Shown: positions 1 through 53,301, counted from the stretch's first letter. The stretch is DNA of 64,000 bases from an uncultured Holophagales bacterium (GCA_963842525.1 CAWJGT010000003.1:1536001-1600000), one strand, 5' to 3'. Notes: generated by a model not told the origin, from the letters alone. Numbers and translations are program-made.

Positions 1-3000
1 GCGGCGGAGCGCGCCAGGCGGCGCAGGCGGTCGGCAACGTCGGCCGGCGGACTCGCCTTGACCATGAAGACACCGGTGGCCCCCGGCTGCGGCCCGGTCC
101 GTCGCGGCAGCGTCGTGGACTCGGCATCGGTGAGGAGCCGCCGCCAGAAATCACGTGCCTCGGCGGATTCCAGCGTGTGCCGCTCCAGCTCCACGTATTC
201 GCGGAAGGTCGAGGCGAGCGCCGTTTCGGCCGCGGGCGCCTCCCCGTCCAGCAGCGCCTTGTAGCGCCGGAAGAGGTCGGTCAGCAGGGTAGCGGCGCTC
301 CAGCCGTCGAGCACGGAGTGATGAAAGCTCAGGGTGAGCTGGAAGGCCGCGTCCTCCAGGCGGTGGGCGTGGAAGCGCACGAGCGGCGGGCGCGTCCAGT
401 CGAAGGGCCGGTGCACCTCGGCCTGCAGCCAGGCCGCCACCGCGGCATTCCGCGCCTCGGCCGGCAGGTGCCGCAGGTCTTCGCAGACGAGCGGCGGCGC
501 CACCTCCGCCTGCACGAGCTGGAGAGGCTCCGTGAACCCCGAAAGAGCGAACGACGTGCGCAGCACGGGATGGCGGCGGGTCACCTGGCCGATGACGGCG
601 GCAAGCAGGTCCGCGTCATACCGCGTGCGCAGCCGGAAGCTGTGCAGGTCGTGGTAGACCGCCGACTCCGGGTCGAGCTCGCTGTGGAACAGCATGCCGG
701 CCTGGAGCTGCGTGAGCGGATAGGCGTCCTCCAGCCCCGGGGGGAGCCGCCGCCGGTCGGCCTCGGTGACCAAGGCGAAGGGCCCGGCCGGCGGCGGCGC
801 GCTCCTGTCCTCCGCGACCAGTGCGACATGCCTGGCGAGCTCGCGGATCGTCGGATGGCTGAAGATGTCCTGCACGCTCAGCTCGATGCCGCGCTTCCGG
901 GCCAGTGGGCTGACCTGGACGGTGCGGATCGAGTCCCCGCCGAGGTCGAAGAAGTTGTCGTCGAGGCCCACCCGTTCCACCTCCAGGACGCGTGCCCAGA
1001 TCTGGGCCAGGACCTCCTCGGCCAGATTGCGCGGGACGGCGTACTCGGCCGCGCGCCCCGTGCCCTGCGGCTCGGGGAGCGCCTGGCGGTCGAGCTTGCC
1101 GTTCGGCGTGAGCGGCAGGGCTGCGAGCGCCACGAAGGCGGCCGGGATCATCGGCTCGGGGAGCCGGCCGGCGAGGAAGCTCCGCAGCTCCGCGGCCAGC
1201 TCTCGCCCGTCCGCCGGACCGGCCGGCACCACATAGGCCACCAGGCGCGGGACGCCGTCCGCCGGGCGGGGCATCACGGCGGCCTCGGCCACCGCGGGAT
1301 GGGCCGCGAGCGCCGCCTCGATCTCGCCGGGCTCGATGCGGAAGCCGCGGACCTTCACCTGGCTGTCGATGCGCCCCAGGAACTCCAGCTCGGCGTCCGC
1401 GCGCAGGCGCACGAGGTCGCCGGTCCGGTAGAGGCGGTCCCCCGCCTGGCTCTGTCCGCAGCCGGCGAAGGGGTCGGGCACGAAGCGCTCGGCGGTGAGG
1501 TCCGGCCGGCCCAGGTAGCCGCGCGCCAGGCCGGCGCCGCCGATCCAGAGCTCGCCCGCCACACCCTGGGGGACCGGCCGCAGGCCCGGCCCCATCACAT
1601 AGAGACGGGTGTTGGCGATCGGCCGACCGATCGGCACCGCGCCTGCCGCGGGATCGCCGGGCTGCACCTCGTAGATGCAGCAGCCCACGGTCGTCTCCGT
1701 GGGCCCGTATTCGTTGATCAGCCGGGTGCCGGGGGCGTGCTCCCGCCAGGCCGTGAGGCTCTCGGCCCACAATGCCTCGCCGCCGATCACCAGGGCGCGG
1801 GCACGCCCCGCCAGCTCCTCGGGCGCCAGGAGATGGCGCAGGACCTGGAGGTGCGCCGGCGTCAGCTTGACCAGGCTGAAATCGCCGCCCGCCCGCAGCG
1901 CGGCGGCGAGGGTGGCCGCCCCCTCCTCCTCGGGCAGCAGCACCGCGGGGGAGCCGGCCACGAGCGGCACGAGCAGGCTGGTGACCGTCAGGTCGAAGCC
2001 GATGGCGGAGTGGACCGGCGCCCCGCCGCCCTCGCCCGCGCGGTAGCTCTCCGCAGCCCAGTCGAGATAGTTGGCCAGGCCGCGGTGGGGGACCATGACT
2101 CCCTTGGGCCGTCCGGTCGAGCCCGACGTGTAGATCACGTAGGCCAGGTCGTCCGGCCCCGCCGAGCGCTCCAGGTCGTCCGCGTTGCGCCGTGCGATCC
2201 TCCGCCGGTCCTCCCCCCCGTCGTCGAGCCGGACGATGCGGGGGATCCCGGCGAGCCCGGGACGCAGCGCCAGGATCTCTTCCCGGGTGACCAACAGGGG
2301 GAGCGCGGCGTCGGCCGCCATGAATGCGAGCCGCTCGGCCGGGTATCCCGGATCGAGCGGGACGTACGCCGCTCCCGTCTTGAGCACGGCCAGCACCGCC
2401 TCGACCATCTCCTGGGAGCGCTCCAGGCAGAGGCCGACCAGCGCCCCGGGGAGAGCTCCGAGCGACCGGAGATGGTGCGCGAGGCGGTTGGCGCGGGCGT
2501 TCAGCTCTTCATAGGTGAGGCGGAGCGCTCCTCCTGCGGCGACCGCCGTTCCCTGAGGGGCGCGCCGGGCGCGCTCCTCGAACCGATCGTGGGCGAGCGT
2601 TCCGGGGAGAGGGCGCGCGGTGCGGTTCCACTCGACGAGCAGCTCCCGGCGCTCGGCCTCCGAGAGCACGTCGATCTCGGCGAAGGGGAGGGTGGGGTCT
2701 GAGCAGACCCCGTCCAGCACCCGCTGGAAGCGGCCGAGCAGCGTCTCGGCGCGCTCCCGGTCCCAGACCAGGGGATCGAAGCGGAGATCGAGTGCGATCG
2801 AGCCCCCTCCGACCCGTGCCGTGAGCCCCAGGTCGCAGCGGTCCGCACCGGCATACCCGGTGTGGAGCGTGAACGGGTGGCCGTCGAGAGGGATGCGGGT
2901 CTCCTCGCAGGCGAAGCCGAAGGGCCAGCGCTCGATCCGCTCCGGCGGGAAGAAGAGCTGCCACTCGGCCGCCTCGGCCATCTGGATTCCTACAGCGGAG

Positions 3001-50800: not shown

Positions 50801-53301
50801 TCCGCGTACAGGCCCGCCGGGGGAGGTGGAGCCTCCCCGGCGGCAAGGGCGCCGAGCTCGCGGGCCAGCACCGCCATCGACCAGAAGTCGGTCGCGATGT
50901 GGTGCACGGCCAGGGCGAGGAAGGCCTCGCCGCCGCGCCGCAGCAGGGCGGACCGCAGGAGGGGGCCGGCCGAGAGGTCGAAGGGGCGGAACGCCTCCGC
51001 CTGCAGCCTCTCGCGCACCTCCGCGTCGCTCCAGCCGGTCGCGTCCACGACCTCGAAGGCGGCTTCGGCCCGCTCCGCCACGCGCTGCACCGGACCGTCG
51101 GGCGTATCGGTGAAGGTGGCGCGCAGCATGGGGTGTCGGTCGACCAGCCCCTGGAACGCGCGGCCCAGGGCCGCAACGTCGGCGGTGTCCGCCGGGTGGA
51201 GCCGCGCCGCGCCGGCGATGTTGTAGGCCGGGCTCTCCGGCGCCAGCCGGTGGAGGAACCAGAGCGAGCGCTGGTTCCAGGAGAGCGGATGCTCACCCTC
51301 TGCTGCGCCGGAAGCCAGCAGGAGCGGTACGGTCACCGGGGCTGCCCCGCCGGCCACCCGCTGCTCGACCTCGCGCAGGGTCATCCCCTCCAGGAGGTCC
51401 GGCAGGGAGAGGGTGACGCCGGTCGCCTCCTCCACGGTGCTCTTCAGCTCCACGGCAGCCAGCGAGTCCAGCCCCGACGCGGAGAGCGGGCGGTCCGGGT
51501 CGACCTTGGCGGGATCGACCCGCGCCGCTGCGGCGAAGGCCCGCCGGAGCCAGTCCAGGGAGCCCGGGAGGGCCTCCGTCCGCGGGTCTTCGTCCGCGGC
51601 GGCGGGGGAGAGGCGGCTCGCGCCGAGCACGCGCAGCTCGCCCCGCAGGTACAGGTCGCGGCAGGCCCGCCTCTGCACCTTGCCGCTGGTGGTGCGCGGC
51701 ACGCCGCCCGGGGGCACCAGCACCACCTCGTAGACCAGCGCCTCGTGCTCCTCCGCGATCGCCTGACGGATCGCGGCGGCGATCTCTTCCTGCCGGGCGT
51801 GGCGCTCGGTCTCGTGAACGATCACCAGCCGCTCCTCGCCGCCGACCTCGACCGCGAAGGCCGCGCCCGTGCCGTCGCCCAGGGCCGGGTGGGCCTTGCC
51901 GGCCGTGGCTTCGAGGTCCTGCGGGTAGTGGTTCCTGCCGCGCAGGATGATCAGGTCCTTGAGGCGGCCGGCCACGAACAGCTCGCCCCCGTCGAGAGCC
52001 CCTAGATCGCCGGTGCGGAGCCACGGGCCGCGTCCGTCCGCGAGCGCGGCGCCGAAGGCGTGCGCCGTCTCCTCCGGGCAATTCCAGTAGCCGCCCGCCA
52101 CGCTGTCGCCCGCGACCCAGATCTCGCCCACGGTGCCCGGCGGGCAGGGGGCGCCGGTGTCCGGGTCCACGATCTCGACCGCGAGGTCCAGGAGCACGCG
52201 GCCGCAGCCCACGAGCCGCCGTTCGCCCAACTCGCGCACCACCGCCTCCTCGCCCGGGCGCCCGCCGGAGACCATCAAGGTGGCCTCGGCCAGGCCGAAG
52301 CAGGGATAGAGCGCGCCGGGCCGGAACCCGGCCGGAGCGAAGGCTGCGGCGAAGCGCTCCAGCGTCTCCTCGCGCACCGGCTCGGCACCATTGAAGGCCA
52401 CCCGCCAGCAGGATAGGTCGAGCTTCTCGATCTCCGCGGGTGCCATCTTGCGCACGCACAGGTCGTAGGCGAAGTTGGGGCCGCCGCTGGTCGTGCCGCG
52501 ATAGCGCGAGACCGCCCGCAGCCAGCGCGCGGGGTTCTGAAGGAAGGCCACGGGCGCCATCAGCACGCACGGCGCCCCCACCCAGACGGCCTGCAGCAGG
52601 TTGCCGATCAACCCGAGGTCGTGGTAGAGCGGCAGCCAGGAGACGAAGACCGACTCCTCGGAATGGCCGCAGGCGTCCTCGATCACCCGCTGGTTGTGGA
52701 CCAGGTTGGCCTGCGTGACCATCACCCCTTTGGGTGTCGAGGTCGAGCCCGAGGTGTACTGGAGGAAGGCCACGGCGTTCCCCACCTTCGCTGGGGGCTC
52801 CCAGCCGGCGGGGGAGGATTCGAGCTCGTCCGTGGCGAGCCAGGAGAGTGCCGCGGCCTCGGGTGTCCGCTCCAGCCAACCGCGCACCCGCCGCAGCGAC
52901 GCGCCCGCGGCGAGCGCCGCCGCCGGCTGTGCATCAGCGAGGATGGCGAGCAGCCGGGGCATCATGCGCGGCGAGCGCGGCGGATAGGCCGGCACCGCGA
53001 TCACGCCAGCATACAGACACCCGAAGAACGCCGCGACGAAGTCGAGACCCGGAGGATAGAGCAGGAGGGCACGCTCCCCCGGCCGAGTCGAGCGACCCAG
53101 GGCTGCGGCAATCGCCCGCGCCCGCGCCTCCAGGCCCGCATAGGTCAGGCGCTCCTGTTCCTCCTCACCCTCCGCCAGGAAGACGTAGGCCGTGCGATCG
53201 GGTGTCCGCGCCGCACGCAGGCTGAGCGCCTCGGTGAGCGAATTGAAGCCTGCTAAAGAACTAGCGACGTGGTTCGGCAGATACCCGGTATTACCGATCA
53301 A
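41815..53301 (-). CDS. Lipopeptide-initiating NRPS: FAAL-ACP-C-A(Ala)-T-C-A(Gln-like?)-T-C-A(Ala)-T; three apparent frameshifts (~45973, ~43208, ~42560)
   Basis: TTG start 53301 with GGAG 6 nt upstream. FAAL motifs FLQYTSGSTSTPKG, SWLPLYHDLGLIG, SGGPNFAY, GRLKDLIILRGRNHYPQDLE; ACP GLDSL; starter-type C HHIATDFWS. A codes DLFNNALTY twice (Ala) and DAWPFGMID. Segments in ORFs 45898..53301, 43200..45947, 42536..43198 and 41815..42366. Confidence 0.88.

What the first reader, a model, noticed from the sequence alone, without database searches (positions are those of the whole stretch)
1..53301. Orphan >53-kb FAAL-initiated NRPS/PKS assembly line for a thiazole-containing lipopeptide-polyketide
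Seen: five collinear, closely spaced or overlapping megasynthase genes with 11 A domains, 3 cis-AT PKS modules, an A-less module and a Cy/Ox module. Predicted chain: fatty acyl-Ala-Gln?-Ala-Val-X-(side-chain-linked Glu/Aad)-ketide-Gly*-(?)-thiazole-CH=CH-CO-X-Tyr-ketide-(modified Asn)-... Established: FAAL-ACP-C starts lipopeptides, and Cy-A(Cys)-Ox gives thiazole. Inference: this combination matches no pathway I recognise and packs several atypical modules into one line. No TE/R domain, MbtH, transporter or tailoring gene is in the window, so the cluster continues left of position 1.
Basis: partly seen in the sequence, partly recalled or inferred. Interest (0 to 1): 0.9.

Follow-up and report, generated by a model that had tools for sequence, protein, structure and literature searches.

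The report
Giant orphan lipopeptide-polyketide gene cluster
A real but uncharacterised gene cluster of about 86 kb for a fatty-acid-capped, thiazole-containing peptide-polyketide sits in an uncultured soil bacterium that is packed with such clusters, and its apparent frameshifts look like sequencing errors rather than decay.

Summary
On the minus strand, from 53301 leftwards, there are five collinear megasynthase genes. They hold FAAL-ACP-C, 11 amino-acid A domains, three KS-AT PKS modules, one A-less C-T module and one Cy-A(Ox)-T module. Seven frame breaks lie inside domains.

The line runs 31.8 kb beyond position 1. In total it has seven genes and about 19 A domains, and it ends in Cy-(A remnant)-T followed by an MFS transporter. 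It has no TE.

The breaks are most likely assembly indels. All seven are +1 type. Genome-wide there are 103 breaks in 850 kb of domain sequence, 81 of them +1 type, and only one in-frame stop. 29 of the 103 lie at GAAGCTC/GAGCTTC, against a 2.6% background. Contigs of related soil bacteria lack the extra base at four sites.

No characterised relative was found. The only ortholog is a 10-kb contig labelled Thermoanaerobaculia, at 82%. Other full-length homologs are at most 64% identical. The genome holds about 300 A domains and a paralogous 120-kb line.

Verdict: a genuine orphan cluster, and a new member of a known kind, in a group (Acidobacteriota) in which giant NRPS/PKS regions are already reported. 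Interest is moderate.

The parts
41815..53301 (-). Gene 1: FAAL-ACP-C(starter)-A1-T-C-A2-T-C-A3-T. It carries three frame breaks.
   Evidence: Pfam and domain map. The C-terminal tail and stop are at 41815-41817 and the next ATG at 41822.
52087..53217 (-). Fatty acyl-AMP ligase (FAAL) core.
   Evidence: The best PDB matches are FAALs: 7R7E at 5.7e-170, then 3KXW, FadD23, FadD32 and FadD28.
51358..51555 (-). ACP fused to the FAAL.
   Evidence: PP-binding at residues 183-248 of window:51289-52101:-, E 3e-14.
49933..51288 (-). Starter-type C domain with motif HHIATDF.
   Evidence: It branches apart from the LCL group.
20115..41822 (-). Gene 2: C-A4-T-C-A5-T-C-A6-T-KS-AT-T-C-A7-T-C-T-Cy-A8(Ox)-T. 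It carries three frame breaks.
32184..33953 (-). A6-T, a Lys2-like adenylation domain with code DPRHLVLRA.
   Evidence: Its best NCBIfam match is TIGR03443 at 599.5 bits. Control A-T pairs score 231 and 217 bits. Code.
29103..32105 (-). PKS module 1: KS-AT-T. The AT is a variant with GVGDHY, GYSLGE and HAFH.
   Evidence: The same variant occurs in the C34 paralog and in L013.
24258..25841 (-). A-less module, C-T.
   Evidence: The same C-T is present in the orthologous contig L012.
20256..24170 (-). Cy-A8-T with an Ox domain (20775-21299) inserted in the A domain. A8 code is DLWNLSLIW.
   Evidence: The best PDB match for Cy is EpoB, 4.9e-105.
14763..20111 (-). Gene 3: KS-AT-KR-DH-ACP. The AT carries HAFH.
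   Evidence: Against PDB, KR covers residues 224-491 and DH residues 492-778 of the C-terminal half.
3936..14766 (-). Gene 4: C-A9-T-C-A10-T-KS-AT-T-C. It carries one frame break.
1..3935 (-). Gene 5, first part: C*(no HH)-A11-T-C. It continues to window -9561.
   Evidence: The C* motif LPALAADT is conserved in C34 and in L014.
45965..45983 (-). Frame break 1, +1 type, inside A2 at ...CGGGAAGCTC...
   Evidence: Related contigs leave out one base at 45973.
43200..43234 (-). Frame break 2, +1 type, inside A3.
   Evidence: One related contig shows a net change of -1 at 43200-43218.
42555..42566 (-). Frame break 3, +1 type, at the end of the A3 core.
   Evidence: There is one extra base relative to the C34 paralog at 42560.
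37985..37993 (-). Frame break 5, +1 type, inside C5 at ...GGAGCTTCCC...
   Evidence: Related contigs leave out one base at 37991/37992.
35390..35412 (-). Frame break 6, +1 type, in the T-C linker.
   Evidence: Its position is only approximate.
35230..35250 (-). Frame break 7, +1 type, inside C6 at ...GATCTTCGATG...
   Evidence: Related contigs leave out one base at 35235.
10960..10980 (-). Frame break 8, +1 type, inside C10 at ...CGGGAAGCTC...

Best explanation
The window holds the first 53 kb of one collinear, FAAL-primed hybrid NRPS/PKS assembly line. The whole line covers about 85 kb (window 53301 to -31805) and has seven genes, followed by an MFS exporter gene. The host is an uncultured, very NRPS-rich bacterium whose nearest named relatives are Thermoanaerobaculia (Acidobacteriota) MAGs.

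Shown:
- the domain order
- the gene boundaries
- the conserved end of the line
- an ortholog and a paralog

Inferred chemistry:
- A fatty acid is adenylated, loaded on the fused ACP and N-acylates residue 1.
- Six amino acids follow: Ala, Gln-like, Ala, Val, X, and an alpha-aminoadipate/Glu-like unit bound through its side-chain carboxyl.
- A malonyl extension follows, then a Gly-like unit, then one A-less module.
- Cys is cyclised and oxidised to a thiazole.
- The thiazole carbonyl is extended and dehydrated to a 3-(thiazolyl)acrylate.
- Next come X, Tyr, another malonyl extension and Asn.
- About eight further residues lie left of the window, with two E domains, two dual E/C-like domains, one N-MT-type insertion and one FkbM-type methyltransferase insertion.
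- The release step is unknown. The line has no TE or reductase and ends in Cy-(A C-terminal subdomain)-T.

The seven frame breaks in the window, and four more to the left, are most likely single-base assembly errors and not mutations. The genes are therefore probably intact in the organism.
For: Architecture:
- Pfam, and the domain-level map.
- C-domain classes by motif and tree: a starter; an LCL group; a DCL-like group; two E domains with HHLxVDGVSW; two Cy domains with DxxxxD.
- FAAL identity, Cy closest to EpoB, Ox as nitroreductase.
- All three KS domains have Cys/His/His and all three AT domains have HAFH.
- KR is followed by DH, with HxxxGxxxxP and HPALLD present.
- A6 is Lys2-like.

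End of the line:
- No further megasynthase domain lies after -31709 until a second FAAL at -35223.
- An MFS gene lies at -33185..-31809.
- Its 65% paralog directly follows the end of the paralogous C34 line.

Real genes, not junk:
- Contig L012 is collinear at 82.2% over 10,375 columns. It has two intact ORFs and the same A-less C-T module.

Breaks as artefacts:
- All 7 of 7 in-window breaks are +1 type.
- Genome-wide there are 103 breaks in 850,512 bases of A/C/KS/AT hits, or one per 8.3 kb. The window has one per 7.6 kb.
- Of the 103, 81 are +1 type, 21 are -1 type and only 1 is an in-frame stop.
- 29 of 103 junctions hold GAAGCTC/GAGCTTC, against 2.6% of 5,000 control intervals. The 6-mer AAGCTC occurs 29 times against 3.15 expected, P = 4e-20.
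- Across the whole genome the coding frame switches at 138 of 1,161 such 7-mers (11.9%), against 5-6.6% for 7 of 8 control words. The eighth, GAGGCTC/GAGCCTC, is also raised, at 82 of 714.
- Against the C34 paralog the window has one extra base at breaks 2, 3, 5 and 8.
- Contigs from four soil metagenome runs, 90-96% alike, leave out one base at 45973, 37991/2 and 35235, and a net one base at 43200-43218.
Against: - The raw reads behind this assembly were not seen. The laid contigs come from relatives (for example 42 differences in 501 bases), not from the same strain. They show that relatives are in frame, not that this organism is.
- Breaks 3 and 6 have no row among the 12 indel rows shown (26 more rows were not shown). 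Break 8 lay outside the laid stretch.
- About 70% of the genome-wide breaks lack the GAAGCTC motif.
- rpoC is unbroken, which is compatible with either view.
- No release domain was found.
- Two C-like domains lack the catalytic His pair: C11b with LPALAADT, and C13 with QMMLLDG, left of the window. One continuous line is therefore not proven.
- Substrate assignments rest on specificity codes interpreted from memory. A7 has Asn in place of the conserved Asp235.
- AT1 has GYSLGE instead of GHSxG.
- MIBiG, antiSMASH and BiG-SCAPE could not be run.
Confidence: 0.8

Rival explanations
1. Two or more separate assembly lines lie head to tail, rather than one 85-kb line. For example, g1-g4 end with the C-terminal C domain (5348-4047) acting as the releasing domain, and g5-g7 start a second peptide behind an inactive C-like domain.
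For: - g4 ends in a canonical C domain (HHIAADG), and g5 begins with a C-like domain that has no His pair (LPALAADT).
- C13, left of the window, also lacks the His pair.
- No TE is available for a single long line.
Against: - The T-C | C*-A-T junction recurs in the middle of long collinear gene strings: in the C34 paralog, and in L014 and L053. That fits an inter-subunit junction better than an end.
- g4 and g5 are adjacent on one strand.
- g5 has no loading or FAAL module of its own.
- The transporter follows only the end of g7.
Confidence: 0.2
2. The frameshifts are real and the cluster is decaying into pseudogenes.
For: Eleven frame breaks lie in 85 kb, inside catalytic domains. The source reads were not examined.
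Against: - The break rate is the same across about 850 kb of domain sequence on 13 contigs.
- The bias is 81 to 21 towards +1 type, with only 1 in-frame stop among 103 breaks.
- There is strong enrichment at one sequence word.
- Relatives lack the extra base at four sites.
- The third-position GC signal stays intact on both sides of every break.
Confidence: 0.07
3. The odd modules (A-less C-T, terminal Cy-Ac-T, tandem C-C*) are assembly collapses of repeated NRPS sequence, so the region is partly chimeric.
For: NRPS repeats are hard to assemble. The genome holds hundreds of similar modules and a paralog that is 76-82% identical.
Against: - The A-less C-T module is present in the independently assembled contig L012.
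- The C-C* junction and its degenerate motif recur in C34 and in L014.
- The paralogous line also ends in a C-like domain, an A remnant and a T, followed by an MFS gene.
- The frames stay open through these junctions.
Confidence: 0.05

Closest known systems
Epothilone EpoB/EpoC junction: Cy-A-Ox-PCP followed by a reducing PKS module.
   Same: The Cy domain's best solved relative is EpoB (5T7Z, 4.9e-105). The Ox domain is inserted in the A domain. A KS-AT module with KR and DH follows directly, which would give a vinyl-linked thiazole. How epothilone works is recalled from memory.
   Different: - Here the order is KS-AT-KR-DH-ACP.
- The AT carries the malonyl-type HAFH motif.
- The unit sits in the middle of a long FAAL-primed peptide line.
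- Overall identity to any named protein is low.
FAAL/ACP/starter-C lipoinitiation of lipopeptides, as in the daptomycin-type lipopeptides.
   Same: A FAAL, an ACP and a specialised first C domain are present. The scheme is described in the abstract of PMC9113097, which I saw only in the listing.
   Different: FAAL and ACP are fused to the first NRPS subunit here, not free-standing. The peptide is far longer and is interrupted by PKS modules.
Lys2 / alpha-aminoadipate-activating adenylation domains.
   Same: A6-T scores 599.5 bits on TIGR03443 and ranks first. Its code DPRHLVLRA resembles the Aad code that I recall for fungal ACV synthetase.
   Different: - The score is below the model's cut-off of 1030.1.
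- There is no reductase domain.
- The domain is embedded as C-A-T-KS-AT-T, so the activated carboxyl would be chain-extended.
- The substrate is untested.
Giant NRPS/PKS regions of uncultured Acidobacteriota (UBA5704 family, Ca. Angelobacter).
   Same: - The genome is very rich in NRPS/PKS.
- The nearest contigs are labelled Thermoanaerobaculia or Acidobacteriota.
- Passages in the literature report a UBA5704 MAG with 111 modules and BGC regions of about 270 kb (PMC10640626), more than 3 BGCs per Mbp (PMC12818350), and BGC-rich clades (bioRxiv 10.1101/2021.05.10.443473).
   Different: I saw no product or module-level description for any of them in those passages. Whether this genome belongs to UBA5704 was not determined.
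Interface-type or inactive C-like domains of NRPS.
   Same: C11b is a Condensation-family domain without the HHxxxDG pair. antiSMASH 8 flags such domains as inactive and now models 'interface domains' that partner beta-hydroxylases (passage of PMC12230676).
   Different: No TauD-type hydroxylase lies near the cluster: there are 8 hits in the genome and none near it. Membership in the interface-domain family was not tested.

Membership tests
FAAL-primed lipopeptide initiation | The adenylating enzyme belongs to the fatty acyl-AMP ligase group. | tested here: met
   The top PDB matches are FAALs: 7R7E at 5.7e-170, then 3KXW, FadD23, FadD32, FadD28 and 3PBK.
FAAL-primed lipopeptide initiation | A carrier protein receives the acyl group, and a starter-type C domain follows. 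| tested here: met
   PP-binding lies directly after the FAAL. The first C domain has HHIATDF and branches outside the LCL group. The subtype label 'starter' comes from position and tree, not from a curated model.
Thiazole-forming NRPS module (Cy-A-Ox-T) | The heterocyclisation domain has DxxxxD in place of HHxxxDG. | tested here: met
   The motif is DLLIGD. The best PDB matches are EpoB, Irp2/HMWP2 and BmdB cyclisation domains.
Thiazole-forming NRPS module (Cy-A-Ox-T) | An FMN-dependent oxidase domain is present. | tested here: met
   Pfam Nitroreductase, 8.5e-17, lies inside the A domain.
Thiazole-forming NRPS module (Cy-A-Ox-T) | The A domain is specific for cysteine. | tested here: inconclusive
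   The code is DLWNLSLIW. L012 has DLWNLSMIW and L013 has DLYNLSLIW. The likeness to the Cys code is recalled. No predictor or assay was available.
cis-AT modular PKS | KS has the Cys-His-His triad, an AT is present in each module, and an ACP is present. | tested here: met
   The alignment of the three KS and three AT domains and the domain map. AT1 departs from the norm with GYSLGE and GVGDHY.
cis-AT modular PKS | The reducing domains are in the canonical order DH-KR. | tested here: not met
   The order is KR then DH. The same order occurs in 20 of the 79 related loci examined. My DH model was built from this DH type, so canonical DH domains may have been missed.
Decaying (pseudogenised) cluster | Breaks are specific to the locus and include nonsense mutations and mixed indels. 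| tested here: not met
   Breaks occur genome-wide at one per 8.3 kb, with 81 +1 type, 21 -1 type and 1 in-frame stop. They are tied to a motif. Relatives are in frame at four sites.
Already characterised biosynthetic cluster | High identity and the same domain order as a cluster with a known product. | tested here: not met
   - Genome contigs: the best hit is an unnamed MAG at 82%, then 65%, then 60% or less.
- 5.8 billion protein clusters: full-length hits reach at most 64% and carry generic names.
- Metagenome contigs: at most 54%.
- 40 relatives: about 70% at the DNA level.
- MIBiG itself was not searchable here.
TE- or reductase-terminated NRPS | A terminal thioesterase or reductase domain is present. 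| tested here: not met
   The last 835 residues are T-Cy-AMP-binding_C-T only. The genome has 14 TE matches, none within the line. The nearest on the same strand is at window -111031.

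The most novel reading that the evidence does not exclude
The line, its 120-kb paralog and the related MAG loci define a new family of acidobacterial lipopeptide-polyketides of about 23 or more units. The family would be built around three conserved, undescribed devices:

1. A cassette C-A(Lys2-like, DPRH...)-T-KS-AT(GYSLGE variant)-T. It would chain-extend the side-chain carboxyl of an aminoadipate/Glu unit into a new extended keto-diacid amino building block.
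2. An inter-subunit T-C | C*(no His) junction.
3. TE-less termination through a terminal Cy-(A remnant)-T.
Probability: 0.25. Interest if true: 0.6.

Novelty: new member of a known kind. Interest (0 to 1): 0.4.

Why it matters
If the cluster is expressed, it would give a long lipopeptide with a thiazolyl-acrylate unit and an unusual side-chain-extended acidic residue. It would come from a phylum for which I found no characterised NRPS/PKS product in the passages read.

The practical lesson is more immediate. The frame breaks follow a recognisable pattern: +1 insertions, many at GAGCTC-derived words. Gene calls and antiSMASH-type predictions on this assembly will therefore split megasynthases wrongly unless the frames are corrected.

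The conserved cassettes are concrete targets for enzymology:
- the Lys2-like A domain with the variant AT
- the C | C* junction
- the Cy-T end

The cluster is nevertheless one of many similar orphan lines in this genome and in Acidobacteriota, so the surprise for a specialist is moderate.

Tried and rejected
Searches for an independent copy of gene 1:
- A metagenome-contig scan with the 914-aa in-frame piece of gene 1 gave 526 relatives, but the best segment identity was 54%. It was of no use for checking the breaks.
- A DNA search of 40 related genomes gave only generic NRPS similarity, about 65-71%.

Other negative searches:
- Rfam on the whole window gave no match.
- The 360-aa ORF between the MFS gene and the second FAAL (window -34997..-33918) has no Pfam, NCBIfam or PDB sequence match and no paralog in the genome. 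It is not conserved beside the C34 line, so I dropped it as a candidate release enzyme.
- GATC as an error motif was rejected. It occurs in 33% of junctions against a 38% background, although two window breaks lie near GATC.
- A nearby beta-hydroxylase to explain C11b: there are 8 TauD hits in the genome and none near the cluster.
- MbtH: a single hit, far away at C3:40815.

Method notes:
- My first regex attempt at specificity codes was too noisy. I replaced it with hmmalign columns.
- I first placed position 301 one residue off and corrected it against the window's own A10 motif.
- In one search, parts of the stretch without listed contig cover (breaks 3 and 6) say nothing either way.

Literature searches:
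- 'KS-AT-KR-DH-ACP' found 1 paper, which was not relevant.
- 'Thermoanaerobaculia' with BGC and NRPS found 4 papers, none describing a product.
- The interface-domain search led to PMC10212144, whose main text did not hold the term.
Supplementary Data 4 of PMC10640626 and the supplementary tables of PMC12818350 may list related clusters, and I could not see them.

Tools not used or not available:
- I did not use structure prediction, complex prediction, the atlas search or the representative search. No claim here depends on them.

Full report
**Where the window lies.** The window is G000:C3:1,536,001-1,600,000, in a 9.95-Mb assembly of 34 contigs. G+C is 0.66-0.76 across the window. Third-position G+C plots show continuous minus-strand coding from 53301 down through position 1 and on to about -33,500. 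The frame changes in between. To the right of 53301 the genes point the other way and look like housekeeping genes. They include a riboflavin-synthase-like protein, a beta-eliminating lyase, a RidA-like protein, a phosphoribosyltransferase and an acyl-CoA-synthetase-like protein. The right border of the cluster is therefore about 53301.

**Checking the observation.** I used Pfam on the open frames. I also made a domain-level map with HMMs bootstrapped from the window's own domains, searched against all reading frames. On the minus strand they give:
- g1: FAAL-ACP-C-A1-T-C-A2-T-C-A3-T
- g2: C-A4-T-C-A5-T-C-A6-T-KS-AT-T-C-A7-T-C-T-Cy-A8(Ox)-T
- g3: KS-AT-KR-DH-T
- g4: C-A9-T-C-A10-T-KS-AT-T-C
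- g5 (start): C*-A11-T-C...

The frame change near 41.9 kb is a true gene boundary. A docking-like tail ends in a stop at 41815-41817, and a new ATG at 41822 overlaps it by 8 nt. The other seven frame changes cut through domains. For example, A2 is split between profile positions 262 and 233, and C5 between 225 and 157.

**Extent of the line.** The genes continue left of the window:
- g5 runs to -9561: ...A12-T-E-C-A13(class-I methyltransferase insertion)-T-E
- g6 runs from -9562 to about -22375: four C-A-T modules
- g7 runs to -31805: C-A18-T-C-A19(FkbM-type methyltransferase insertion)-T-Cy-(AMP-binding_C only)-T

The g6/g7 change of frame is again a real boundary, with a tail and a fresh N-terminus. 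An MFS transporter gene follows at -33185..-31809.

The genome holds a paralogous line on contig C34 (237,431-357,702, about 120 kb). It has the same FAAL start and the same middle section: Lys2-like A-T-KS-AT-T, then Cy-A(Ox)-T-KS-AT-KR-DH-T-C-A-T-C | C-A. It also ends in a C-like domain, an A remnant and a T. An MFS gene 65% identical to the one here follows it directly. I take this shared end as evidence that -31805 is the true end of the line.

No thioesterase lies within the line. The genome has 14 TE matches, and the nearest on the same strand is at window -111031 and belongs to another line. The line is one of at least four inside a 170-kb megasynthase tract at C3:1,418,774-1,589,217.

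**Are the frameshifts real?** Several lines of evidence say probably not.
1. All seven in-window breaks are of the same kind, +1 or equivalently -2.
2. Frame breaks inside A, C, KS and AT hits occur over the whole genome. There are 103 in 850,512 bases, or one per 8.3 kb, and the window has 7 in 53.3 kb. Of the 103, 81 are +1 type, 21 are -1 type and only one is an in-frame stop. Decay should also give nonsense mutations, and would be expected to give deletions at least as often as insertions.
3. 29 of the 103 junction intervals contain GAAGCTC or GAGCTTC, against 2.6% of 5,000 control intervals in intact domains. The 6-mer AAGCTC/GAGCTT occurs 29 times against 3.15 expected (P = 4e-20), and TTCGAA 9 times against 0.82. 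Breaks 1, 5 and 8 of the window sit at CGGGAAGCTC or its complement, and break 7 at CTTCGA. The pattern reads like a base doubled inside GAGCTC.
4. Genome-wide, and not only in NRPS genes, the coding frame switches across 138 of 1,161 GAAGCTC/GAGCTTC sites (11.9%) and 82 of 714 GAGGCTC/GAGCCTC sites (11.5%). The other seven words tested give 5.1-6.6%.
5. Against the C34 paralog the window has a single extra base at breaks 2, 3, 5 and 8.
6. Logan contigs of four soil-metagenome runs from four studies, laid at 90% or more likeness, leave out exactly one base at 45973 (X1, X2), at 37991/37992 (X2, X4) and at 35235 (X1, X2). One X2 contig has a net -1 at 43200-43218.

These contigs are relatives, not the same strain; for example, one has 42 differences in 501 bases. 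They therefore show that the orthologous genes of close kin read through. Breaks 3 and 6 are not among the rows shown, and break 8 was not in the laid stretch. The source reads were not available to me, so this remains a strong inference and not proof. rpoC is unbroken at 1,397 aa, which neither helps nor hurts.

**What the modules should do.**
- *FAAL.* It matches solved FAALs best.
- *C domains.* They fall into expected classes by motif and tree. There is a starter (HHIATDF) and an LCL group. The DCL-like group comprises C9 after the PKS module, plus C13 and C14 after E domains. Two dual-E/C-like domains are C12 and C19. There are two E domains (HHLxVDGVSW) and two Cy domains (DLLIGD, DALLMD).
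- *A-domain codes.* Nine-residue codes were read from hmmalign columns anchored on the window's own A10 motifs:

| Domain | Code |
|---|---|
| A1, A3 | DLFNNALTY |
| A2 | DAWPFGMID |
| A4 | DALWLGGTF |
| A5 | DFFHHGGVN |
| A6 | DPRHLVLRA |
| A7 | NILQLGLVW |
| A8 | DLWNLSLIW |
| A9 | DIFHFGLII |
| A10 | DASTIAAVC |
| A11 | DLTKVGEVG |
| A12 | DAPTVAAVC |
| A13 | DIWEITADD |
| A14, A19 | DFWNIGMVH |
| A15 | DLYNNALTY |
| A16 | DLTKIGEVG |
| A17 | DALDLGSVT |
| A18 | DVWHVSLVD |

  Reading these as Ala, Gln-like, Ala, Val, X, Aad/Glu-like, Gly-like, Cys, X, Tyr, Asn, Tyr/Phe-like, basic, Thr, Ala, Asn, X, Ser, Thr is from memory of published codes and was not tested.
- *A6, tool-based support.* A6-T ranks first on the Lys2 model TIGR03443, at 599.5 bits against 383.8 for the generic A-domain model. 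Control pairs A4-T and A10-T give 231 and 217 bits on the Lys2 model.
- *Cy and Ox.* The Cy domain is closest to EpoB, and Ox is a nitroreductase-family insertion.
- *PKS domains.* All KS domains keep Cys/His/His, and all AT domains carry HAFH, which I recall as the malonyl type. AT1 has GVGDHY and GYSLGE in place of GQGSQ and GHSxG.
- *g3.* KR precedes DH, confirmed against solved KR and DH structures. The DH keeps HxxxGxxxxP and HPALLD. A 3-(thiazolyl)acrylate after the thiazole is therefore a reasonable inference.

**Conserved oddities.**
- The cassette A(DPRH...)-T-KS-AT(GYSLGE)-T recurs in the C34 paralog (DPRHFVYRA) and in MAG locus L013 (DPRHLVLRA). The variant AT is therefore not an error.
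- The His-less C-like domain at the start of g5 (LPALAADT) recurs as LPALCADA in C34 and as LSALCGDP in L014, each time behind a subunit that ends in a canonical C domain.
- The A-less C-T module is present in the orthologous contig L012.
- The order KS-AT-KR-DH-T is found in 20 of the 79 loci retrieved with g3, from several phyla. Four of the 79 also carry an Ox-containing A domain just upstream. My DH model derives from this DH type, so canonical DH-KR modules among the other 59 loci may have gone unseen.
- C13, left of the window, has QMMLLDG instead of HHxxxDG in a frame that is otherwise good. A7 has Asn at the position of Asp235, whereas the paralog has the usual Asp. I cannot explain either.

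**Comparison with what is known.**
- g3 as a protein query over one genome for each of 185,579 species gave L012, labelled a Thermoanaerobaculia MAG, at 82%, then L013 at 65%, then 60% or less.
- L012 is collinear with window 26553-16288 at 82.2% over 10,375 columns and has intact ORFs.
- Among 5.8 billion protein clusters, full-length relatives of g3 reach 61-64%. Several carry Thermoanaerobaculia labels, and none carries a product name.
- Gene 1 has nothing above 54% in metagenome contigs.
- 40 related genomes have no ortholog.

I therefore call the cluster orphan, with the caveat that MIBiG could not be queried.

In passages I read, the literature already reports that uncultured Acidobacteriota carry very large NRPS/PKS repertoires. 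This includes the UBA5704 family. One MAG has 111 modules and BGC regions of about 270 kb (PMC10640626). One report gives more than 3 BGCs per Mbp and notes the need for frameshift correction of long-read assemblies (PMC12818350). Another describes BGC-rich clades (bioRxiv 10.1101/2021.05.10.443473). This genome fits that picture, with 364 A-domain hits (255 full length), 399 C hits and 47 KS hits. Its taxonomic placement is my inference from the labels of the nearest contigs.

**Verdict.** The cluster is real, larger than the window, probably intact, and without a characterised relative. By kind it is a FAAL-primed hybrid NRPS/PKS line, which is a known kind in a lineage known for them. Its individual devices are worth enzymology but were not shown here to be new mechanisms. 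These devices are the Lys2-like A domain with the variant AT, the C | C* junction and the TE-less Cy-T end.

Noticed in passing
whole genome (G000): The NRPS load is extraordinary for 9.95 Mb: 364 A-domain hits (255 full length), 399 C hits (268 full length) and 47 KS hits. Megasynthase tracts of 75, 152, 170 and 39 kb lie on C3, and one of 120 kb on C34. There is only one MbtH gene (C3:40815), and there are 14 TE matches.
   Followed up: partly
G000:C34:237431-359330: A paralogous FAAL-primed line of about 120 kb with about 32 A domains. It is 76-82% identical in DNA to window 35-46 kb. It has the same Lys2-like A / variant AT cassette, the same Cy-A(Ox)-T-KS-AT-KR-DH-T unit, the same C | C* junction, the same TE-less end and a 65% identical MFS gene.
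   Followed up: partly
whole genome; window examples at 45972, 37988 and 10970: There is a systematic +1 insertion signature at GAGCTC-derived words: GAAGCTC/GAGCTTC, also GAGGCTC/GAGCCTC, and TTCGAA. It looks like a motif-specific base-calling or polishing error, perhaps at a methylated site. Gene calls across this assembly will be affected.
   Followed up: yes
window -35148 to about -55800 (L002, L091): A second FAAL-ACP start lies directly left of the MFS gene. It is followed by C-?-T, then a protein with a glycosyltransferase-family-1 domain fused before C-A-T-C-A, then T-KS-(no AT)-T-C-A-T-C. No TE was seen.
   Followed up: partly
window -69146 to -55501, plus strand (L092): A third FAAL-ACP-C-A-T-KS-AT-ACP protein of about 3,300 aa is followed by a DUF5916 protein and a sulfotransferase-SCP2 fusion.
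   Followed up: no
window -3712 to -5035 (L001): C13, the C domain after an E domain, has QMMLLDG where HHxxxDG is expected, in an otherwise good frame. It may be inactive, or it may work differently.
   Followed up: partly
window 26607-27626: A7 has a Gly-like code but carries Asn instead of the conserved Asp235 (FNIAALEL). The paralogous position on C34 has the usual Asp.
   Followed up: partly
loci L014-L082: The module order KS-AT-KR-DH-T, always just after an NRPS T domain, occurs in 20 of 79 related loci. These come from Acidobacteriota, cyanobacteria, Micromonospora, Nonomuraea, Methylomonas, Myxococcota and others. It seems to be a widespread hybrid-junction module type.
   Followed up: partly
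window -34997 to -33918 (L002:5003-6082): A 360-aa ORF with a good coding signal has no Pfam, NCBIfam or PDB match and no paralog in the genome.
   Followed up: partly
window 53192-63109: The right flank is ordinary metabolism on the opposite strand: a lumazine-binding (riboflavin synthase-like) protein, a beta-eliminating lyase, RidA, a phosphoribosyltransferase and an AMP-binding acyl-CoA-synthetase-like protein. Several ORFs there have no family match.
   Followed up: partly
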